A stretch of 15,191 nucleotides of DNA from IMG/VR virus record IMGVR_UViG_2698536480_000008. One strand, given 5' to 3'. The notes under the pieces are model-generated. The model was not told the DNA's origin. It worked only from the letters and a program-made list of their open reading frames with translations, and ran no database searches. Each line of letters opens with the position of its first letter. Positions within the stretch are counted from its first letter, which is position 1. Shown in pieces: positions 5,635 through 15,191 of the stretch. A program made the translations under genes and the position numbers. This DNA is from a virus. Taxonomy: Duplodnaviria > Heunggongvirae > Uroviricota > Caudoviricetes.

Positions 5635-6492
5635 TTACCCCCTGAAGCCTGGCGGGATCGCACTATCCGGTAACGAGACGGTGTTAACCTGTCGGAGTAA
5701 CGTCTCAGGTCGAACACCTTTCGGCGCGAACAAGCCCTGGTATTCATTGGCGATGCTGTGTCGAATCACCTGCTCAGGTGAAAAACCCTGCTGGCGGAAT
5801 TTTTCCAGCTCCCGTATCGCCCCGTTAGCGCCCTGCTCCGTTCGAATCGGTTTTCGCAATGCCTGGCGAAATTCAACCCACTCACGCCAAAGCGAGACAG
5901 AAATCCAGTTCGGCAAAGTAATATCCAGAGGGTCAAACTTTTTGACACCTCGATTCCCCCGGGGGGGATTTAGGGGGGGATCTGTTTTTAGATCTTTATC
6001 TGTATCTTTATTAGTTGCCTTTGTGTTGACATCATGTTCAAACACCACTTCAACATCTGTTTGAACACCTGTTAAATTTCTCTCTTGTTTTGTTTGAACA
6101 TCTGCTTCCTTTCTGCTTCTTCTGGCCTGAACAGATGCTTTTCCTGCGGCTGATTTTTTGGTTAATTTTTCCCTGACTGATGCCAGATCTTCCTCAATCC
6201 GAAGATGCACCCATTCCTCGCCGTTATCGCAAAAAAACTCCTGCAAGGATGGTTCAACATCAGCCCATCGCTCGTTAGTCAGACGGGCAATTTTTGCCAG
6301 CCTGTTTTTAGGTATTGGCTTTCCTGTTTGCCAGTAATTGAACATCAGCAACAAATACGCACCATGCTCCTCTGCTGACAAATGCATGGTGTCAGCCAGG
6401 TAATCAGCTATGTACAGTTGCATGTATGGTAATGCGGCCATAATTGCCCCGTATGATGCTGCCCGGTGGCTTAGAATAAGCACAAACAGCAT
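5635..6492 (-). CDS. ydaU: Rac prophage replication-initiation-like protein (YdaU/DUF1376 type), 285 aa
   Basis: 285-codon ORF immediately upstream of ydaV on the same strand, with a 6-nt gap. Length and synteny match K-12 YdaU. The annotated start at 6492 has no obvious ribosome-binding site; an internal ATG at 6441 (MAALPYMQLY) is an alternative. Confidence 0.8.
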   Translation of the reverse strand: MLFVLILSHRAASYGAIMAALPYMQLYIADYLADTMHLSAEEHGAYLLLMFNYWQTGKPIPKNRLAKIARLTNERWADVEPSLQEFFCDNGEEWVHLRIEEDLASVREKLTKKSAAGKASVQARRSRKEADVQTKQERNLTGVQTDVEVVFEHDVNTKATNKDTDKDLKTDPPLNPPRGNRGVKKFDPLDITLPNWISVSLWREWVEFRQALRKPIRTEQGANGAIRELEKFRQQGFSPEQVIRHSIANEYQGLFAPKGVRPETLLRQVNTVSLPDSAIPPGFRG

Positions 6493-6504
6493 GGAAACTT
6501 TTGC

Positions 6505-6630
6505 TTAATGAACAATGACAGAATCGTCGGAAGAACCGCCGCCGCTGAAATGCGCTTTCCGGTAAACGGCTTGGACTGCATCATCATGCGCATCAATTGC
6601 CGTACTTAACGCTTCCTGCGCCGCCAGTAT
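6505..6630 (-). pseudogene. ydaT: 3' remnant of ydaT (last ~40 codons) without a start codon, left by a ydaS-ydaT deletion
   Basis: Minus-strand frame ending at the TAA at 6507..6505 translates to ...LAAQEALSTAIDAHDDAVQAVYRKAHFSGGGSSDDSVIVH*, matching the YdaT C-terminus as I remember it. Upstream of about 6630 the frame runs into the ydaS ORF in another frame. Confidence 0.45.
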
Positions 6631-6826
6631 CAGGACGAAGTTCTTCGCACAGAACCTCACCTCTTGTTGCACGTTCAATTGCTGGACATCTCTCGGCAGG
6701 CAATTGACGTACCCCTTTGATCCATTGATTTACGCTTGGAGGTGATACACCTAAAAGCCTAGCCATTGCTGATTGCCCACCGACAACAGCACAAGCTTGC
6801 TTGAATGAATAGTTCTCTTTTTTCAT
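6593..6826 (-). CDS. ydaS: Cro-like helix-turn-helix regulator, 77 aa, probably C-terminally altered by a deletion
   Basis: ATG at 6826..6824 with a GGAG ribosome-binding site. MKKENYSFKQACAVVGGQSAMARLLGVSPPSVNQWIKGVRQLPAERCPAIERATRG is a Cro/CI-type HTH, divergent from racR. K-12 YdaS is ~98 aa by memory; here it ends early in ...TGGAGSVKYGN. Confidence 0.7.
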   Translation of the reverse strand: MKKENYSFKQACAVVGGQSAMARLLGVSPPSVNQWIKGVRQLPAERCPAIERATRGEVLCEELRPDTGGAGSVKYGN

Positions 6827-6949
6827 CGAATGAACTCCAAAAACACACAGAAATATTAGGCGACGCCTAACGCAATTGTCAATAGGCTGTGCCTAATGCG
6901 GTAAGGGTAGGGATTGCCTAATGTAATGCGCATAGGAGAATATTAAGCA
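6827..6949. promoter_or_regulatory. Divergent ydaS/racR promoter-operator region with TTAGGC-type palindromes
   Basis: Perfect 15-bp palindrome TTAGGCGACGCCTAA (6855-6869), inverted repeat TAGGCTGTGCCTAA (6883-6896), a further GCCTAA half-site (6916-6921), and the 13-bp motif ATTGTCAATAGGC (6875-6887). Lies between the divergent start codons of a repressor/Cro pair. Confidence 0.55.
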
Positions 6950-7426
6950 ATGCTTAGTGGTAAAGACTTAGGCCGAGCGATAGAGCAGGCCATTAACAAA
7001 AAAATCGCATCGGGATCCGTCAAATCAAAGGCGGAGGTCGCACGCCACTTCAAAGTCCAACCACCATCAATTTATGACTGGATTAAGAAAGGCTCTATAA
7101 GTAAAGATAAACTTCCAGAATTATGGCGTTTCTTTTCTGATGTTGTTGGTCCAGAGCATTGGGGGCTTAACGAATACCCCATACCAACCCCCACCAATTC
7201 AGATACAAAAAGTGAACTTTTAGATATAAACAACCTTTATCAAGCAGCCTCTGATGAAATAAGAGCGATTGTAGCTTTCCTGTTATCTGGAAATGCTACA
7301 GAACCAGATTGGGTTGACCACGATGTTCGCGCCTACATAGCAGCGATGGAAATGAAAGTGGGTAAGTATCTGAAAGCTCTAGAATCTGAACGGAAAAGCC
7401 AGAACATCACAAAAACTGGAACTTAA
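6950..7426 (+). CDS. racR: Rac prophage repressor, 158 aa
   Basis: ATG at 6950 with an AGGAG ribosome-binding site (6934-6938); 158 aa with an N-terminal HTH (KAEVARHFKVQPPSIYDWIKKG). Divergent from the Cro-like gene; length matches RacR. Confidence 0.85.
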   Translation: MLSGKDLGRAIEQAINKKIASGSVKSKAEVARHFKVQPPSIYDWIKKGSISKDKLPELWRFFSDVVGPEHWGLNEYPIPTPTNSDTKSELLDINNLYQAASDEIRAIVAFLLSGNATEPDWVDHDVRAYIAAMEMKVGKYLKALESERKSQNITKTGT

Positions 7427-7499
7427 ACTTATATGGTCTGACGGAAAACTCCTGGATTCCGTTATTTAACCCCCCCATCACTTTCTGCTGTCGCCATCA

Positions 7500-7560
7500 C
7501 CTATTAGGTTACGCTCAAAACATTAGGCATAGCCTATTGACAATCAATTAGGCATTACCT
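7500..7560. promoter_or_regulatory. Second operator-like cluster downstream of racR and upstream of ydaG, sharing motifs with the ydaS/racR operators
   Basis: TTAGGCATAGCCTA inverted repeat (7523-7536), TTAGGC at 7549-7554, TTAGGT at 7505-7510, and GCCTATTGACAAT (7532-7544), which is the exact reverse complement of the 13-mer at 6875-6887. Confidence 0.35.
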
Positions 7561-7734
7561 ATAGTTCCAGCATACCACCCACCCCGCCCCACAGAACGCC
7601 GGGCAATACTTCGAGTTACCAGGCAGTGGTAAGGGGTTAAGTAGCCAGCCCGAGGCGTATGAACATGACGGCGGGATTCAAATTTTGCAGTGCAGCAGTT
7701 AGTTCCGCCACCCGGCGTTAAGGGGAGAGATAAG

Positions 7735-7869
7735 ATGGTGCATTACGAAGTAGTTCAGTATTTGATGGATTGTTGCGGTATCACTTACAACCAGGCTGTG
7801 CAGGCTTTACGCAGCAACGACTGGGATCTCTGGCAGGCAGAAGTCGCTATACGTAGCAACAAGATGTGA
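7735..7869 (+). CDS. ydaG: Small Rac prophage protein, 44 aa
   Basis: ATG at 7735 with a GGGGAGAG ribosome-binding site; MVHYEVVQYLMDCCGITYNQAVQALRSNDWDLWQAEVAIRSNKM. Below the ORF-track size cutoff; position (racR-proximal) and length fit ydaG. Confidence 0.6.
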   Translation: MVHYEVVQYLMDCCGITYNQAVQALRSNDWDLWQAEVAIRSNKM

Positions 7870-7879
7870 GATTCGCAAA

Positions 7880-8035
7880 ATGCAAAAAATCGACCTCGGC
7901 AACAACGAATCCCTGGTGTGCGGCGTGTTCCCCAACCAGGATGGAACGTTCACTGCCATGACGTATACCAAAAGCAAAACATTTAAAACCGAAACTGGTG
8001 CGCGCCGATGGTTGGAGAAGCACACAGTAAGCTAA
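7880..8035 (+). CDS. ydaF: Small Rac prophage protein, 51 aa
   Basis: ATG at 7880; MQKIDLGNNESLVCGVFPNQDGTFTAMTYTKSKTFKTETGARRWLEKHTVS. Its stop overlaps the convergent sieB stop. Position (sieB-proximal) and length fit ydaF. Confidence 0.6.
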   Translation: MQKIDLGNNESLVCGVFPNQDGTFTAMTYTKSKTFKTETGARRWLEKHTVS

Positions 8036-8520
8036 CGATTAAAACGTCTACTCCTGCTGTTCCAGAATAACTTCATAAAATGGGAGTATTTTTCGGTGAC
8101 GAGATAATAAGAACAGTTTGCGCTATCACTCTGATGTTGAATGATGCCCTTCCGTTCTAATTTTTTCATAACCGGGTTACGGCAAGGAGAAGTGATAATA
8201 AGATTTCCTGTTTTAAGGAAATCTTTAAATACAGCGATTTCTTTCTCAGATAAACGAAGCAATACTCGTTGCTCTGGTAGTAATGAATAATGCTTTTGAA
8301 TATGTGCTCGCAATCTTGAGAAGGAAATGGCGACCACGAAAGAAAAGGCAAAAACGATAATCTGAAAGAGCCAAGGTATTTCAGTATAAGCATTGAATGC
8401 GACAGTAAACTCTTTCGGTATCAGCCAGAGAGTGAGACCAAAAATGATAATCGTATACATAAGTCTTTCGAGTGGCTCGTTAGCAAAAAGTTTCAACAAT
8501 GGAGTAAATACATCCAACAT
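8032..8520 (-). CDS. sieB: Superinfection exclusion protein B, 162 aa, membrane protein
   Basis: Start at the internal ATG 8520..8518 (MLDVFTPLLKLFANEPLERLMYTIIIFGLTLWLIPKEF...), with hydrophobic helices. Length and sequence match Rac SieB as remembered. The 203-aa track ORF is an unsupported upstream extension. Confidence 0.85.
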   Translation of the reverse strand: MLDVFTPLLKLFANEPLERLMYTIIIFGLTLWLIPKEFTVAFNAYTEIPWLFQIIVFAFSFVVAISFSRLRAHIQKHYSLLPEQRVLLRLSEKEIAVFKDFLKTGNLIITSPCRNPVMKKLERKGIIQHQSDSANCSYYLVTEKYSHFMKLFWNSRSRRFNR

Positions 8521-8961
8521 ATCAATAACTCTCAACTGTAAGGGTATTGAAATGTTAACACAAGCTCTCGCTGTAGGGGTATAGCCGAGACCACCGAAGC
8601 CCGGAGGTGGTGAAATAAAACCGGGCACAACACGAAGGCGCATTTCCGATATCCATAAAGAGTCGGTCTTGTCTGTTAAATTTAAATGGTGGGAGTGCGC
8701 CTCCGGTTGTAAATAACGACATTGCTGTGTGTAGTCCTGGCGGCATCAGTTTTTTTCTTGAAGTTCGGCTGATGTCCGCCCTTTTTAAAGTGAATTTTGT
8801 GATGCGGTGAATGCGGCTAAGCGCACGTGGCACAGTTAAAAGTCATGTTAGTCCTTATTGGTTTGGGTGGGAAAGCCGACTGTAATTGTTAACTGGTTGC
8901 AGTCACCTGGAGGCACCAGACACCGCATCAACAAAGTTCATTTGTAAAAATGGAGATAATT

Positions 8962-9183
8962 ATGATTGCACATCACTTCGGAACTGATGAAATACCACGT
9001 CAGTGTGTGACTCCTGGCGATTATGTTCTTCATGAAGGCCGGACATATATTGCCTCGGCAAACAATATTAAAAAGCGAAAACTATATATTCGTAACCTGA
9101 CCACAAAAACATGCATTACTGACCGCATGATTAAAGTCTTCCTCGGTCGTGATGGTTTACCTGTAAAGGCGGAGTCATGGTGA
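8962..9183 (+). CDS. kilR: Rac prophage killing protein KilR (FtsZ inhibitor), 73 aa
   Basis: ATG at 8962 with GGAG 6 nt upstream; [73 protein letters not shown]. Divergent from sieB, as in Rac. Confidence 0.8.
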
Positions 9184-9353
9184 TGACTAAGAAAATAAAA
9201 TGTGCTTACCACCTTTGCAAAAAAGACGTTGAAGAAAGCAAAGCTATTGAAAGAATGCTTCACTTCATGCACGGGATTTTATCAAAAGACGAACCGAGAA
9301 AATATTGCAGTGAAGCTTGTGCCGAAAAAGACCAGATGGCACATGAACTTTAA
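9183..9353 (+). CDS. ydaE: Small Rac prophage protein YdaE, 56 aa, Cys-rich
   Basis: The ATG at 9183 overlaps the kilR TGA by 1 nt (ATGA); [56 protein letters not shown]. Not in the ORF track because it is under 60 aa. Confidence 0.65.
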   Translation: MTKKIKCAYHLCKKDVEESKAIERMLHFMHGILSKDEPRKYCSEACAEKDQMAHEL

Positions 9354-9427
9354 TTAATTGACTATTCGAAACTGAATTTATGCCAGAAATGGCAGGTATT
9401 CGCTCAACCTTAATTAAGGAGAAAAAC

Positions 9428-9703
9428 ATGATTACCAATTATGAAACCACTGTTGTAACTACCGATGACATTGTTCACGAGGTGAATCTGGAAGGAAAGC
9501 GCATTGGCTACGTAATTAAAACAGAAAATAAAGAAACCCCATTCACTGTGGTTGATATCGATGGTCCATCAGGCAACGTAAAAACACTTGATGAAGGTGT
9601 CAAAAAAATGTGCCTGGTGCATATCGGAAAGAATCTGCCCGCAGAAAAAAAAGCCGAATTTCTGGCAACTCTAATTGCAATGAAATTAAAAGGTGAAATC
9701 TGA
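9428..9703 (+). CDS. racC: Rac prophage protein RacC, 91 aa
   Basis: ATG at 9428 with an AAGGAG ribosome-binding site (9416-9421); MITNYETTVVTTDDIVHEVNLEGKRIGYVIKTENKE... Sits immediately upstream of recE. Confidence 0.8.
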   Translation: MITNYETTVVTTDDIVHEVNLEGKRIGYVIKTENKETPFTVVDIDGPSGNVKTLDEGVKKMCLVHIGKNLPAEKKAEFLATLIAMKLKGEI

Positions 9704-9708
9704 AAGAA

Positions 9709-9733
9709 ATAGCCTGCGTATGGCGCAGGCTAT
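9709..9733 (+). other. Perfect 10-bp-stem hairpin in the racC-recE intergenic region
   Basis: ATAGCCTGCG-tatgg-CGCAGGCTAT starting 6 nt after the racC stop. No U-tract follows, so it is not a canonical intrinsic terminator. Confidence 0.3.
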
Positions 9734-9804
9734 GAACAGTGTGTATCCGGCAAGATCATTCACTGAACAAAACGAATTTTAATCTGAGTTGAGGTTAAAA
9801 AACA

Positions 9805-12405
9805 ATGAGCACAAAACCACTCTTCCTGTTACGGAAAGCGAAAAAATCATCCGGTGAACCTGACGTCGTCCTGTGGGCAAGCAACGATTTTGAATCGACC
9901 TGTGCCACTCTGGACTACCTGATCGTTAAGTCAGGTAAAAAACTGAGCAGCTATTTTAAAGCTGTTGCCACGAATTTTCCTGTCGTTAATGACCTGCCCG
10001 CTGAAGGTGAGATCGATTTTACCTGGAGTGAACGCTATCAACTCAGCAAAGACTCCATGACATGGGAACTAAAACCGGGAGCAGCACCAGACAACGCTCA
10101 CTATCAAGGCAATACCAACGTCAACGGCGAAGACATGACTGAGATTGAGGAGAATATGCTACTCCCAATTTCTGGCCAGGAACTGCCCATTCGTTGGCTT
10201 GCTCAACACGGCAGCGAAAAACCGGTAACGCACGTTTCACGCGACGGACTCCAGGCATTACACATTGCTCGGGCTGAAGAACTACCGGCTGTTACTGCCC
10301 TGGCTGTTTCCCACAAAACCAGCCTGCTCGACCCGCTGGAAATTCGCGAACTCCACAAACTGGTTCGTGACACTGACAAAGTTTTCCCTAATCCTGGTAA
10401 TTCAAACCTGGGACTGATAACTGCTTTTTTCGAAGCATACCTGAACGCTGACTACACCGATCGAGGAGTGCTGACAAAAGAGTGGATGAAGGGTAATCGT
10501 GTTTCACACATCACTCGCACGGCTTCCGGTGCTAATGCTGGCGGCGGAAACCTCACCGATCGCGGCGAAGGTTTCGTACACGATCTGACGTCACTGGCGC
10601 GCGACGTAGCCACTGGCGTACTGGCCCGTTCAATGGATCTGGACATCTATAACCTTCATCCGGCACACGCTAAACGCATTGAGGAAATTATCGCTGAAAA
10701 TAAACCGCCCTTTTCTGTTTTCCGCGACAAATTCATCACCATGCCTGGCGGGCTGGATTATTCCCGCGCCATCGTGGTTGCGTCCGTAAAAGAAGCACCA
10801 ATTGGGATCGAGGTCATCCCCGCGCACGTCACTGAATATCTGAACAAAGTACTGACTGAAACCGATCATGCCAACCCTGATCCGGAAATCGTGGATATTG
10901 CCTGCGGTCGCTCCTCTGCCCCGATGCCGCAGCGAGTAACAGAAGAAGGAAAACAGGATGATGAAGAAAAACCGCAACCATCTGGAACAACGGCAGTTGA
11001 ACAGGGAGAGGCTGAAACAATGGAACCGGACGCAACTGAACATCATCAGGACACGCAGCCGCTGGATGCTCAGTCACAGGTAAATTCTGTTGATGCGAAA
11101 TATCAGGAACTGCGGGCAGAACTCCATGAAGCCCGGAAAAACATTCCATCAAAAAATCCTGTCGATGCCGATAAATTGCTTGCTGCATCACGTGGTGAAT
11201 TTGTTGACGGAATTAGCGACCCGAACGATCCGAAATGGGTAAAGGGGATCCAGACTCGCGATTGTGTGTACCAGAACCAGCCAGAAACGGAAAAAACCAG
11301 CCCAGATATGAATCAACCTGAGCCAGTAGTGCAACAGGAACCGGAAATAGCCTGCAATGCCTGCGGCCAGACTGGCGGGGATAACTGCCCTGACTGTGGT
11401 GCGGTGATGGGCGACGCAACATACTAGGAAACATTCGATGAAGAGAGTCAGGTTGAAGCTAAGGAAAATGATCCGGAGGAAATGGAAGGCGCTGAACATC
11501 CGCACAATGAGAATGCTGGCAGCGATCCGCATCGCGATTGCAGTGATGAAACTGGCGAAGTCGCAGATCCCGTAATCGTAGAAGACATAGAGCCAGGTAT
11601 TTATTACGGAATTTCGAATGAGAATTACCACGCGGGTCCCGGTATCAGTAAGTCTCAGCTCGATGACATTGCTGATACTCCGGCACTATATTTGTGGCGT
11701 AAAAATGCCCCTGTGGACACCACAAAGACAAAAACGCTCGATTTAGGAACTGCTTTCCACTGCCGGGTACTTGAACCGGAAGAATTCAGTAACCGCTTTA
11801 TCGTAGCACCTGAATTTAACCGCCGTACAAACGCCGGAAAAGAAGAAGAGAAAGCGTTTCTGATGGAATGCGCAAGCACAGGAAAAACGGTTATCACTGC
11901 GGAAGAAGGCCGGAAAATTGAACTCATGTATCAAAGCGTTATGGCTTTGCCGCTGGGGCAATGGCTTGTTGAAAGCGCCGGACACGCTGAATCATCAATT
12001 TACTGGGAAGATCCTGAAACAGGAATTTTGTGTCGGTGCCGTCCGGACAAAATTATCCCTGAATTTCACTGGATCATGGACGTGAAAACTACGGCGGATA
12101 TTCAACGATTCAAAACCGCTTATTACGACTACCGCTATCACGTTCAGGATGCATTCTACAGTGACGGTTATGAAGCACAGTTTGGAGTGCAGCCAACTTT
12201 CGTTTTTCTGGTTGCCAGCACAACTATTGAATGCGGACGTTATCCGGTTGAAATTTTCATGATGGGCGAAGAAGCAAAACTGGCAGGTCAACAGGAATAT
12301 CACCGCAATCTGCGAACCCTGTCTGACTGCCTGAATACCGATGAATGGCCAGCTATTAAGACATTATCACTGCCCCGCTGGGCTAAGGAATATGCAAATG
12401 ACTAA
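9805..12405 (+). pseudogene. recE: recE (exonuclease VIII) interrupted by an in-frame amber codon at codon 541 (TAG 11425-11427); otherwise a full-length 866-codon frame
   Basis: The 540-aa ORF (9805-11427) and the 307-aa ORF (11482-12405) are in the same frame, separated only by the TAG and 18 sense codons ([18 protein letters not shown]); 540+1+18+307 = 866, the RecE length. The downstream part holds the RecE nuclease domain and ends in ATGACTAA, overlapping the recT start. Confidence 0.85.
11482..12405 (+). CDS. recE: Possible C-terminal RecE fragment (307 aa, complete exonuclease domain) if translation reinitiates or the amber is suppressed
   Basis: In-frame ATG at 11482, but GGAGGA sits only 1 nt upstream, so initiation is doubtful. 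The fragment covers the C-terminal region known to suffice for RecE nuclease activity. Confidence 0.3.
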
Positions 12406-13207
12406 GCAACCACCAATCGCAAAAGCCGATCTGCAAAAAACTCAGGGAAACCGTGCACCAGCAGCAGTTAAAAATAGCGACGTGATTAGTTTTATTAACC
12501 AGCCATCAATGAAAGAGCAACTGGCAGCAGCTCTTCCACGCCATATGACGGCTGAACGTATGATCCGTATCGCCACCACAGAAATTCGTAAAGTTCCGGC
12601 GTTAGGAAACTGTGACACTATGAGTTTTGTCAGTGCGATCGTACAGTGTTCACAGCTCGGACTTGAGCCAGGTAGCGCCCTCGGTCATGCATATTTACTG
12701 CCTTTTGGTAATAAAAACGAAAAGAGCGGTAAAAAGAACGTTCAGCTAATCATTGGCTATCGCGGCATGATTGATCTGGCTCGCCGTTCTGGTCAAATCG
12801 CCAGCCTGTCAGCCCGTGTTGTCCGTGAAGGTGACGAGTTTAGCTTCGAATTTGGCCTTGATGAAAAGTTAATACACCGCCCGGGAGAAAACGAAGATGC
12901 CCCGGTTACCCACGTCTATGCTGTCGCAAGACTGAAAGACGGAGGTACTCAGTTTGAAGTTATGACGCGCAAACAGATTGAGCTGGTGCGCAGCCTGAGT
13001 AAAGCTGGTAATAACGGGCCGTGGGTAACTCACTGGGAAGAAATGGCAAAGAAAACGGCTATTCGTCGCCTGTTCAAATATCTGCCCGTATCAATTGAGA
13101 TCCAGCGTGCAGTATCAATGGATGAAAAGGAACCACTGACAATCGATCCTGCAGATTCCTCTGTATTAACCGGGGAATACAGTGTAATCGATAATTCAGA
13201 GGAATAA
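12398..13207 (+). CDS. recT: RecT single-strand annealing recombinase, 269 aa
   Basis: ATG at 12398 overlapping the recE stop; [35 protein letters not shown]... matches RecT. The track start at 12341 is an upstream extension. Confidence 0.9.
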
Positions 13208-13263
13208 TTCAGCCTGGCGGTGTAATGCACCGCCAACTTGAAATATTTTTTATGAGAAAAATT

Positions 13264-13458
13264 ATGAGATATGACAATGTTAAACCATGTCCATTTTGTG
13301 GTTGTCCATCAGTAACGGTGAAAGCCATTTCAGGATATTACCGAGCGAAGTGTAACGGATGCGAATCCCGAACCGGTTATGGTGGAAGTGAAAAAGAAGC
13401 ACTCGAAAGATGGAATAAACGAACCACTGGAAATAATAATGGAGGTGTTCATGTATAA
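13264..13458 (+). CDS. ralR: RalR (Lar) restriction-alleviation protein / type I toxin DNase, 64 aa
   Basis: MRYDNVKPCPFCGCPSVTVKAISGYYRAKCNGCESRTGYGGSEKEALERWNKRTTGNNNGGVHV from the ATG at 13264; Cys4 zinc-ribbon pattern; located between recT and ydaC. Confidence 0.8.
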   Translation: MRYDNVKPCPFCGCPSVTVKAISGYYRAKCNGCESRTGYGGSEKEALERWNKRTTGNNNGGVHV

Positions 13459-13660
13459 AATTACCGCCACTATTGAAAAGGAAGGTGGCACTCCTACTAA
13501 CTGGACAAGATATTCAAAATCTAAACTAACGAAATCAGAATGCGAAAAAATGCTCTCAGGTAAAAAAGAAGCAGGCGTTTCCAGAGAGCAGAAAGTAAAA
13601 CTGATAAATTTTAATTGCGCGAAACTTCAGTCCTCGAGAATTGCATTGTATTCAAATTAA
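13451..13660 (+). CDS. ydaC: Rac prophage protein YdaC, 69 aa
   Basis: ATG at 13451 with a GGAGGT ribosome-binding site (13441-13446), overlapping the ralR 3' end by 8 nt; MYKITATIEKEGGTPTNWTRYSKSKLTKSECEKMLSGKKEAGVSREQKVKLINFNCAKLQSSRIALYSN. Confidence 0.75.
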   Translation: MYKITATIEKEGGTPTNWTRYSKSKLTKSECEKMLSGKKEAGVSREQKVKLINFNCAKLQSSRIALYSN

Positions 13661-13671
13661 AACTTCATAGC

Positions 13672-13687
13672 TGATTATTAATAATCA
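13672..13687. promoter_or_regulatory. Perfect 16-bp palindrome TGATTATTAATAATCA upstream of xisR/intR
   Basis: Read directly; lies in the 78-bp gap between ydaC and xisR, about 50 bp upstream of the xisR start. Candidate protein-binding site controlling excision/integration genes. Confidence 0.3.
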
Positions 13688-13738
13688 ACATCGGGCGTCA
13701 ATTTCAGTCTAACATTGGCGCCTGCCAGAGGTGATGCG

Positions 13739-13954
13739 ATGGCACAAGTAATCTTTAATGAAGAGTGGATGGTTGAATACGGCCTGATGCTTCGCACTGG
13801 TCTGGGGGCCAGACAAATTGAAGCATACCGCCAGAACTGTTGGGTGGAGGGCTTCCACTTCAAACGAGTATCTCCTTTAGGTAAGCCAGACAGCAAACGA
13901 GGGATTATCTGGTACAACTATCCAAAGATAAATCAGTTTATCAAAGACTCATGA
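13739..13954 (+). CDS. xisR: Excisionase-like protein (XisR/YdaQ), 71 aa
   Basis: ATG at 13739 with an AGAGG ribosome-binding site; [71 protein letters not shown]. Immediately upstream of the integrase, with the stop 1 nt before the intR ATG. Confidence 0.8.
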
Positions 13955-13955
13955 T

Positions 13956-15191
13956 ATGTCTAAATTACCAACAGGTGTCGAGATTAGAGGTAGATACATT
14001 CGCATCTGGTTCATGTTTCGAGGAAAACGATGTCGGGAAACATTAAAAGGCTGGGAGATTACAAACAGTAATATTAAAAAGGCCGGAAATTTAAGAGCGC
14101 TGATAGTTCATGAAATAAACTCCGGTGAATTTGAGTATTTAAGACGTTTTCCCCAGTCCAGCACTGGGGCAAAAATGGTGACAACGAGAGTCATAAAAAC
14201 GTTCGGAGAGCTTTGTGATATCTGGACAAAAATTAAAGAGACAGAGTTAACAACAAACACAATGAAGAAAACGAAATCACAATTAAAAACACTCAGAATA
14301 ATAATTTGTGAAAGTACCCCGATATCACATATTCGTTATAGCGATATCTTAAACTACCGGAATGAACTGCTGCATGGAGAAACGCTTTACCTGGATAATC
14401 CAAGATCCAACAAAAAAGGAAGAACCGTGCGCACAGTTGATAACTATATCGCCCTGCTCTGTTCGCTGTTGCGTTTTGCGTATCAGTCGGGATTTATATC
14501 AACCAAACCATTTGAAGGAGTAAAAAAATTACAGCGAAACAGAATAAAGCCTGATCCGTTATCTAAAACAGAATTCAATGCATTAATGGAAAGTGAAAAA
14601 GGACAGAGCCAGAACTTGTGGAAATTTGCCGTTTACTCAGGACTTCGTCACGGGGAACTGGCAGCTCTGGCGTGGGAGGATGTGGATCTCGAAAAGGGAA
14701 TAGTGAATGTCAGAAGAAACCTGACGATACTTGATATGTTCGGTCCCCCAAAAACAAATGCCGGGATCCGAACAGTAACACTACTGCAGCCTGCTCTTGA
14801 AGCACTGAAGGAGCAATACAAACTGACCGGGCATCATCGCAAAAGCGAAATCACCTTTTATCATCGGGAGTACGGCAGAACCGAAAAGCAAAAACTGCAT
14901 TTTGTTTTCATGCCCAGGGTGTGTAACGGAAAACAAAAACCTTATTACTCGGTAAGCAGTTTGGGGGCAAGGTGGAATGCAGCAGTAAAACGTGCTGGTA
15001 TTCGCCGCCGTAATCCGTACCATACGCGGCATACTTTTGCCTGCTGGCTGTTGACGGCAGGAGCGAACCCGGCATTTATAGCCAGCCAAATGGGGCATGA
15101 AACTGCGCAGATGGTGTATGAAATTTACGGTATGTGGATTGATGACATGAACGACGAACAGATAGCCATGTTGAATGCGCGGTTATCGTAG
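13956..15191 (+). CDS. intR: Tyrosine site-specific integrase, 411 aa
   Basis: Full ORF with catalytic-domain motifs (RHGELAALAWEDVDL; HTRHTFACWLLTAG; YEIYG). Length and sequence match Rac IntR. The window ends at its stop codon, so the attachment site lies outside. Confidence 0.9.
   Translation: MSKLPTGVEIRGRYIRIWFMFRGKRCRETLKGWEITNSNIKKAGNLRALIVHEINSGEFEYLRRFPQSSTGAKMVTTRVIKTFGELCDIWTKIKETELTTNTMKKTKSQLKTLRIIICESTPISHIRYSDILNYRNELLHGETLYLDNPRSNKKGRTVRTVDNYIALLCSLLRFAYQSGFISTKPFEGVKKLQRNRIKPDPLSKTEFNALMESEKGQSQNLWKFAVYSGLRHGELAALAWEDVDLEKGIVNVRRNLTILDMFGPPKTNAGIRTVTLLQPALEALKEQYKLTGHHRKSEITFYHREYGRTEKQKLHFVFMPRVCNGKQKPYYSVSSLGARWNAAVKRAGIRRRNPYHTRHTFACWLLTAGANPAFIASQMGHETAQMVYEIYGMWIDDMNDEQIAMLNARLS

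What the first reader, a model, noticed from the sequence alone, without database searches (positions are those of the whole stretch)
11425..11427. recE carries an in-frame amber (TAG) codon at position 541 of an otherwise intact 866-codon frame
The two track ORFs, the stop and the 18 bridging codons sum exactly to the 866 aa of RecE, so this is one point nonsense lesion rather than two genes. I recall K-12 RecE as having Gln here (GDATYQETFDEE), which would make it a single CAG-to-TAG change that a supE (glnV) amber suppressor host would read through to wild type; the residue identity is from memory. The complete C-terminal exonuclease domain lies downstream of the stop, adjacent to an intact recT.
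Basis: partly seen in the sequence, partly recalled or inferred. Interest (0 to 1): 0.6.

Follow-up and report, generated by a model that had tools for sequence, protein, structure and literature searches.

The report
Amber-stop recE pseudogene, Dcm hotspot
The recombination gene recE of a dormant Rac prophage in an E. coli isolate is cut short by a single C-to-T change at a methylated CCAGG site, a textbook mutation hotspot, so this is an ordinary, recently broken gene and not a new mechanism.

Summary
Window 9805-12405 (+) is recE (exonuclease VIII) of a Rac prophage: 866 codons with one in-frame TAG at codon 541 (11425-11427). K-12 MG1655 and all near relatives have CAG (Gln) there, so it is a single C-to-T change.

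The ancestral sequence is CCAGG, a Dcm methylation site, and the mutated base is the inner, 5-methylated C. This is the classic 5-methylcytosine deamination amber hotspot described for lacI.

The window is 100% identical to NCBI draft contig LOOD01000041.1. Four near-identical haplotypes differ from it in recE only at this base, so the change is recent and private.

The same TAG occurs on two other recE haplotypes (strain UTAK-6 and one metagenome contig). Each of these is closer to a CAG allele than to another TAG allele, which points to recurrent mutation.

The allele is rare: 1 of 1798 complete E. coli genomes and 0 of 113 independently sampled loci. It is therefore not a conserved recoding signal.

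All 32 other Dcm sites in the window are unchanged, which argues against a nanopore-type artefact, but reads could not be checked.

The nuclease domain, a possible restart codon (Met560) and recT are intact downstream. The finding is ordinary and of low interest.

The parts
9805..12405 (+). recE (exodeoxyribonuclease VIII) of the Rac prophage, 866 codons, now a pseudogene through one internal amber codon
   Evidence: Translation. It is 99.8% identical and collinear with K-12 recE, annotated 'recE: exodeoxyribonuclease VIII'.
11425..11427 (+). In-frame TAG (amber) at codon 541, derived from CAG (Gln) by C->T at 11425
11424..11428 (.). Decayed Dcm site: CTAGG in the window, CCAGG in all close relatives; the changed base is the inner, 5-methylated cytosine
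   Evidence: Sequence context. It is the only one of 33 Dcm sites that differs from the Logan assembly L019.
9805..11427 (+). Residual N-terminal ORF (540 aa + TAG). It contains the Pfam Exonuc_VIII N-terminal domain (residues 2-178 = 9808-10338) and the rest of the N-terminal region of unknown function
   Evidence: The N-terminus is described as dispensable and of unknown function in PMC11611040 and PMC13048471.
11475..11484 (+). GGAGG (11475-11479) + AA + ATG (11482, codon 560). This is the only in-frame ATG/GTG/TTG between the TAG and codon 620 and a possible restart site. The Shine-Dalgarno-like match is strong but the 2-nt spacing is poor
   Evidence: duplex with the anti-SD -9.5 kcal/mol, against -6.3 for the native recE start and -6.0 for recT.
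11482..12405 (+). Downstream ORF Met560-Asp866 (307 aa) holding the complete PD-(D/E)XK nuclease domain
   Evidence: Pfam PF12684 at residues 56-291 of this ORF. PDB 3H4R ('Exodeoxyribonuclease 8') matches window 11617-12402 with E = 7.6e-182. The nuclease domain is given as residues 564-866 in PMC11611040.
12398..13207 (+). recT, intact. Its ATG overlaps the recE stop (ATGACTAA), and its protein is identical to K-12 RecT

Best explanation
A real, recent, single-base nonsense mutation has turned recE of a resident Rac prophage into a pseudogene. The mutated base is the inner cytosine of a Dcm site (CCAGG). Dcm methylates this cytosine at C5. Spontaneous deamination of 5-methylcytosine gives thymine, and a T:G mismatch that escapes very-short-patch (Vsr) repair is fixed as C->T. 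Because the site is in frame as tac-CAG-gaa, the result is CAG -> TAG. Translation of full-length RecE stops after residue 540, leaving an N-terminal fragment without nuclease. The nuclease domain (about 564-866) and recT remain intact downstream. They could at best be expressed by inefficient restart at Met560, or by rare or suppressor-mediated readthrough inserting Gln. recET in Rac is normally silent, so the loss is probably neutral. What is shown: the lesion, its ancestral state, its Dcm context, its recency, its rarity and its recurrence. What is inferred: methylation and deamination as the chemical cause, neutrality, and any restart.
For: (1) CAG in K-12 and in the nearest complete genome, TAG here. 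The context is CATACCAGGAA -> CATACTAGGAA. (2) The window is 100% identical to GCA_001575385.1 contig LOOD01000041.1 (L017). L014, L015 and L016 are identical to window 5636-15191 except for base 11425, and L019 differs at 3 of 14,935 bases including 11425. Within recE, four haplotypes are at distance 0 once the site is ignored. (3) TAG541 also occurs in UTAK-6, where RefSeq annotates recE as a pseudogene with an internal stop, and in the metagenome contig L013. Each TAG haplotype is closer to a CAG haplotype (0, 2 and 4 differences) than to another TAG haplotype (6, 13 and 15). (4) L013 carries a second amber at codon 74 (TGG->TAG), also at the methylated position of a Dcm site, on the other strand. 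(5) Only 4 of 314 possible nonsense substitutions in recE lie at Dcm 5mC positions, yet 4 of the 6 nonsense occurrences seen are there. (6) Across 93 distinct full-length recE sequences, 8 of 18 Dcm 5mC positions carry the expected transition against 99 of 1268 other C/G positions (Fisher p = 3.9e-5). In the subset sampled without regard to lesions the figures are 5 of 18 against 94 of 1268, p = 0.009. (7) The classical precedent is that lacI amber hotspots are C->T at the second C of CCAGG (Coulondre et al. 1978, as reviewed in PMC12606429). (8) The allele is rare: 1 of 1798 complete genomes carrying this segment, 0 of 113 metagenome/IMG-VR loci and no exact match in the metagenome scan.
Against: No reads are available, so a consensus error at this one base cannot be excluded. 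Dcm activity and methylation of this site in the source strain were not and cannot be tested from the window. The three-origin inference could instead reflect transfer of a short tract (less than about 340 bp shared with UTAK-6). Silence of recET in this strain is extrapolated from K-12.
Confidence: 0.82

Rival explanations
1. The TAG is a sequencing or assembly artefact. Dcm-methylated CCWGG sites are the main source of systematic consensus errors in older nanopore basecalls, so the true sequence would be CAG and recE would be intact.
For: Dcm motifs account for up to 95% of ONT-versus-Illumina discrepancies according to work cited in PMC8106442. One assembly fetched here (L004, GCA_020555995.1) shows such errors at more than 12 Dcm sites, including a 1-nt deletion in this very CCAGG. 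No reads could be inspected.
Against: In the window, 32 of 33 Dcm sites are identical to the independent Logan assembly L019. There are no indels against L014-L016 over 9.5 kb. An artefact-prone assembly changes many sites, and in L004 the changes are CCWGG->CCSGG, not C->T. The same TAG is in a SPAdes-named metagenome contig (L013).
Confidence: 0.1
2. The lesion is not a null. Ribosomes terminating at UAG541, or initiating de novo, start again at Met560 (GGAGG-AA-ATG, 55 nt downstream). This would produce a 307-aa protein equal to the minimal active exonuclease VIII domain, which with RecT would still support recombination once the operon is derepressed.
For: Met560 is the only in-frame start before the nuclease domain and has a strong SD-like GGAGG. 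[quoted passage not shown] The N-terminus is described as dispensable (PMC13048471). Gene callers report this 307-aa ORF as a separate gene in 92 blocks of the collection, behind many different upstream lesions.
Against: The SD-to-ATG spacing of 2 nt is far below the usual optimum, which is established knowledge. No expression data exist. Premature termination may cause Rho polarity and lose translational coupling to recT. The operon is normally silent.
Confidence: 0.2
3. The three TAG541 alleles share a single origin and were spread between Rac prophages by homologous recombination, and did not arise independently at a hotspot.
For: Rac prophages are mosaic and recombine. The tract shared around the TAG without differences is up to about 1.2 kb with L013 and about 340 bp with UTAK-6.
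Against: Each TAG allele has a closer CAG relative than TAG relative. The window's allele sits on a haplotype otherwise identical to four CAG haplotypes. The site is one of only 4 Dcm positions in recE able to give an amber, and Dcm positions are enriched for transitions in the gene as a whole.
Confidence: 0.12
4. The amber codon is read through because the host carries a Gln-inserting amber suppressor (a supE/glnV44-like allele), or it is a conserved programmed readthrough site.
For: UAG derived from CAG would be restored to wild type by a Gln suppressor.
Against: The TAG is not conserved: 1 of 1798 genomes and 0 of 113 loci. sieB in the same window ends in TAG as an ordinary stop. Natural isolates are not expected to carry supE. 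Nothing in the window bears on tRNA genes.
Confidence: 0.03

Closest known systems
recE (b1350) / exonuclease VIII of the E. coli K-12 Rac prophage, with recT
   Same: Same locus, same length (866 codons) and same gene order from racR to intR. Identity is 99.8% at nucleotide level, with 2 amino-acid differences plus the stop. RecT is identical.
   Different: Codon 541 is TAG instead of CAG. The prophage arm to the left of ydaV is the non-K-12 version (nucleoid-associated protein, antiterminator Q), and 420 bp of ydaS/ydaT are missing.
lacI amber hotspots at CCAGG (Coulondre, Miller, Farabaugh & Gilbert 1978): 5-methylcytosine deamination at Dcm sites
   Same: The same motif, the same base (second C), the same substitution (C->T) and the same outcome (CAG -> TAG amber). 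It recurs in independent lineages.
   Different: Seen here as a natural polymorphism in a prophage gene and not in a selected laboratory mutant collection. Methylation of the site was not measured.
recE pseudogene of E. coli UTAK-6 (NZ_CP157151, locus ABH545_RS14435, 'internal stop')
   Same: An identical TAG at codon 541, already flagged as a pseudogene by RefSeq annotation.
   Different: A different Rac variant, with 13 other differences in recE. Its recT is also frameshifted and its ralR is interrupted.
Truncated RecE constructs used in recombineering (nuclease domain only)
   Same: The ORF left downstream of the stop (Met560-866) covers the domain that is sufficient for exonuclease VIII function.
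   Different: Here it has no promoter or proven ribosome-binding site of its own. Full-length RecE, which is better at linear-linear recombination, cannot be made.

Membership tests
RecE / exodeoxyribonuclease VIII (Rac prophage) | N-terminal Exonuc_VIII domain (PF06630) and C-terminal PD-(D/E)XK nuclease domain (PF12684; PDB 3H4R) | tested here: met
   PF06630 E = 2.4e-98 in the 540-aa part. PF12684 E = 4.5e-29 in the 307-aa part. 3H4R E = 7.6e-182.
RecE / exodeoxyribonuclease VIII (Rac prophage) | Orthologous position: racC-recE-recT-ralR-rcbA-xisR-intR next to ttcA | tested here: met
   Collinear with the K-12 and 13E0767 annotation; L017 shows the same flanks.
RecE / exodeoxyribonuclease VIII (Rac prophage) | Uninterrupted 866-codon reading frame (a functional gene, not a pseudogene) | tested here: not met
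   TAG at codon 541. It is recE by descent but a pseudogene by structure.
Dcm-site 5-methylcytosine deamination hotspot mutation | Ancestral sequence is CCWGG, and the change is C->T at the inner C (or G->A at the inner G) | tested here: met
   CCAGG in L001, L002, L014-L016, L018 and L019; CTAGG in the window.
Dcm-site 5-methylcytosine deamination hotspot mutation | Recurrence in independent lineages, and an excess of such transitions at Dcm positions | tested here: met
   Three haplotypes carry TAG541, each nearest to a CAG allele. Transitions at Dcm positions: 8/18 against 99/1268 elsewhere (p = 3.9e-5), and 5/18 against 94/1268 (p = 0.009) in the unbiased subset.
Dcm-site 5-methylcytosine deamination hotspot mutation | The host has an active Dcm methyltransferase and the site is methylated | not testable with these tools
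   dcm/vsr lie outside the window, and no methylation data are available.
supE-suppressible amber allele | UAG derived from a Gln codon, so that Gln insertion restores the wild type | tested here: met
   CAG -> TAG.
supE-suppressible amber allele | The host carries an amber suppressor tRNA | not testable with these tools
   glnV is not in the window or in the 16.8 kb fetched from the source contig.
Programmed stop-codon readthrough / recoding | The stop codon is conserved among relatives | tested here: not met
   1 of 1798 complete genomes and 0 of 113 sampled loci.
Nanopore Dcm basecalling artefact | Many Dcm sites and homopolymers affected in the same assembly | tested here: not met
   32 of 33 Dcm sites are unchanged and there are no indels against near-identical assemblies. 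Contrast L004. Reads were not available, so a single-site error is not excluded.

The most novel reading that the evidence does not exclude
The Dcm site at codon 541 sits 23 codons before the nuclease-domain boundary and 19 codons before a GGAGG-preceded ATG. It might act as a recurrent mutational switch that splits RecE into a free N-terminal protein of unknown function (a Gam-like anti-RecBCD role has been suggested) and a separately initiated minimal exonuclease. The split form would then be selected in some lineages and would not be neutral decay.
Probability: 0.04. Interest if true: 0.45.

Novelty: already known. Interest (0 to 1): 0.13.

Why it matters
It matters little beyond annotation. 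This recE should be labelled a pseudogene (internal stop), and the strain should not be assumed to have a full-length RecET pathway. The case is a clean natural illustration of the Dcm/5-methylcytosine amber hotspot: the same nonsense codon has arisen repeatedly in a prophage gene. It is also a reminder that CCWGG sites are both true mutation hotspots and sequencing-error hotspots, so single differences there deserve a check against the reads.

Tried and rejected
(1) An exact-product look-up of the 540-aa fragment found nothing on record. The source was found instead through the 77-aa YdaS' ORF.

(2) An exact 36-mer scan of the metagenome contigs for the TAG allele gave 0 hits.

(3) Searching papers for the accession LOOD00000000 gave nothing, so the strain identity is unknown.

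(4) The first RecE literature search was swamped by 'receptor' matches. It was repeated with whole-word matching.

(5) The IS5-recE junction of L006 was searched in 5426 complete genomes. No genome has it, and this side issue was dropped.

(6) Programmed readthrough or recoding was considered and rejected because the stop is not conserved.

(7) Systematic nanopore error was considered and rejected as the main explanation because all other Dcm sites are intact.

(8) No protein-database homology search, structure prediction or RNA search was run. The gene is 99.8% identical to a characterised one, so they could not change the verdict.

Full report
**1. The observation**

Window 9805-12405 (+) translates as 866 codons plus TAA, with a single internal stop, TAG, at codon 541 (11425-11427). 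The mechanical ORF list shows 9805-11427 (540 aa) and 11482-12405 (307 aa) in the same frame.

**2. Identity of the gene and of the lesion**

- Megablast against 5426 complete E. coli genomes finds full-length matches at 99.8-99.9%, all annotated recE / exodeoxyribonuclease VIII followed by recT.
- The annotated K-12 MG1655 region (L001) and the closest complete genome, 13E0767 (L002), place the gene in a Rac prophage with the order racR ... kilR, ydaE, racC, recE, recT, ralR, rcbA, xisR, intR, ttcA.
- An ungapped comparison shows 4 differences from K-12 recE and 2 from 13E0767. In both cases one of them is C->T at 11425, CAG (Gln541) -> TAG.
- The K-12 peptide is ...GDATYQETFDEE....

**3. The context explains the mutation**

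- All relatives read CATACCAGGAA and the window reads CATACTAGGAA. CCAGG is a Dcm site, and the changed base is its inner cytosine, the one that Dcm methylates.
- C->T at the second C of CCAGG producing CAG->TAG is exactly the amber hotspot found in lacI by Coulondre et al. (1978). It was the first evidence for deamination of 5-methylcytosine as a source of hotspots (reviewed in PMC12606429).
- recE has nine ancestral Dcm sites. Only four of their methylated positions can give a stop (codons 74, 125, 150, 541), out of 314 possible nonsense substitutions in the gene.

**4. Recency and source**

- Through the unusual 77-aa YdaS' ORF of the window I found contigs with the same prophage variant.
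- The window is 100% identical over all 15,191 bases to NCBI draft GCA_001575385.1, contig LOOD01000041.1 (L017), where no product is called across recE.
- Three other assemblies (L014-L016) are identical to window 5636-15191 except for base 11425. A Logan assembly (L019) differs at 3 of 14,935 bases, including 11425.
- Within recE, four haplotypes are at distance zero once the site is ignored.
- The exact 540-aa product is not on record anywhere in the gene-position collection.
- The TAG is therefore a recent, private, derived change on a common haplotype.

**5. Frequency and recurrence**

- A 61-mer centred on the TAG matches exactly in only 1 of 1798 complete genomes that carry this segment. 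The other 1797 are below 99% identity, and all the listed near-matches carry one mismatch (98.4%).
- That one genome is UTAK-6, where RefSeq already annotates recE as a pseudogene with an 'internal stop'.
- A look-up of the downstream 307-aa ORF found a metagenome contig (L013) with the same TAG.
- I then collected 160 further recE loci from metagenomes and IMG/VR. None of the 113 full-length ungapped sequences among them has TAG541.
- The three TAG haplotypes differ from each other at 6, 13 and 15 other positions in recE. Each has a CAG haplotype at 0, 2 or 4 differences. Three independent origins is the most parsimonious reading, although transfer of a short tract cannot be excluded.
- L013 has a second amber at codon 74 (TGG->TAG), at the methylated position of another Dcm site on the other strand.
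- Of the six nonsense occurrences seen, four are at Dcm 5mC positions. The other two are TGG->TGA at codons 74 and 720.
- Over 93 distinct sequences, 8 of 18 Dcm 5mC positions carry the expected transition, against 99 of 1268 other C/G positions (p = 3.9e-5). In the subset that was not chosen because of lesions the figures are 5 of 18 against 94 of 1268 (p = 0.009). The unmethylated outer positions show 2 of 18.

**6. Artefact check**

- Dcm sites are also the main source of systematic nanopore consensus errors (PMC8106442).
- One fetched assembly (L004) shows what that looks like: CCWGG->CCSGG or 1-nt indels at more than a dozen Dcm sites, including a deletion in this very site, with many broken genes.
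- The window shows nothing of the kind. 32 of 33 Dcm sites are identical to L019, and there are no indels against L014-L016.
- I could not inspect reads, so a single-base consensus error remains possible. I put it at about 10%.

**7. Consequences**

- *Domains.* The 540-aa fragment contains the Pfam Exonuc_VIII N-terminal domain (residues 2-178). The PD-(D/E)XK nuclease domain (PF12684) and the crystallised fragment (3H4R, matching window 11617-12402) are wholly downstream.
- *Possible restart.* The only in-frame start codon between the TAG and codon 620 is ATG at codon 560 (11482). It is preceded by GGAGG with only 2 nt of spacing. Restart there is conceivable but unproven.
- *recT.* RecT is identical to the K-12 protein and its ATG overlaps the recE stop. 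Premature termination may therefore reduce recT translation through loss of coupling or through polarity; this is an inference.
- *Selection.* From established knowledge (the sbcA literature, for example Kushner et al. 1974, cited), recET in Rac is not expressed unless it is activated. The loss is therefore probably neutral.
- *TAG as a stop.* sieB in the same window ends in TAG, so TAG is an ordinary stop here.

**8. Verdict**

The mechanism is a textbook Dcm-hotspot amber mutation in a cryptic-prophage gene. The same allele is already flagged as a pseudogene in a RefSeq genome. Nothing about it is new in kind, and interest is low.

Noticed in passing
window 6593-6826 (junction at 6629/6630): Relative to K-12 and 13E0767, 420 bp are missing (L002 6406-6825). 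The missing stretch covers the first ~99 codons of ydaT, the intergenic spacer and the last 100 nt of ydaS, leaving a 77-aa YdaS' ORF. racR next door is intact. This ydaT-less variant is common: the 77-aa product occurs in 87 blocks of the collection. That is notable because ydaS/ydaT are the toxic genes that make racR essential in K-12.
   Followed up: partly
L013 (ENA ERZ18534451 NODE_1405), positions corresponding to window 10025 and 11425: A metagenome contig carries two amber codons in recE (codon 74 TGG->TAG and codon 541 CAG->TAG). Both are transitions at the methylated position of Dcm sites, on opposite strands.
   Followed up: yes
L004 (GCA_020555995.1, JACWBB010000002.1), whole Rac region: More than a dozen CCWGG sites read CCCGG/CCGGG or carry 1-nt indels, including a 1-nt deletion in the CCAGG of recE codon 541. 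Neighbouring genes (dbpA, dgcM) are split into pieces. This looks like uncorrected nanopore Dcm basecalling errors in a public assembly.
   Followed up: partly
L006, L007, L008 (Logan contigs), junctions at about window 11455-11462: Three assemblies join unrelated DNA to recE within about 25 nt upstream of Met560. L006 has an IS5 end at the CTAA target 11458-11461, L007 has the reverse complement of the 5S rRNA 5' end, and L008 has a sequence ending in TTGACA. These could be insertions or rearrangements that leave or drive only the nuclease-domain ORF, or they could be assembly edges. The IS5 junction is absent from 5426 complete genomes.
   Followed up: partly
window 12398-12405: The recT start codon overlaps the recE stop (ATGACTAA), an arrangement typical of translational coupling. 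The longest mechanical ORF for recT (12341-13207, 288 aa) is longer than the annotated 269-aa gene.
   Followed up: no
L003 (UTAK-6, NZ_CP157151) 10410-14064: In the only complete genome sharing TAG541, recT is also frameshifted by a 1-nt insertion and ralR has an internal stop. This indicates either broad decay of that Rac copy or assembly errors.
   Followed up: no
window 8032-8643 (-): The sieB frame is open for 203 codons from an upstream ATG, whereas K-12 annotation gives 162 aa. Gene callers disagree between loci (203 aa in L004, L012, L013 and L019; 162 aa in L014-L018).
   Followed up: no
L133 and L170 (IMG/VR proviruses): Other natural nonsense alleles of recE occur: codon 74 TGG->TGA (the outer G of the same Dcm site) and codon 720 TGG->TGA inside the nuclease domain. 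recE is thus broken in several independent ways in the population.
   Followed up: partly
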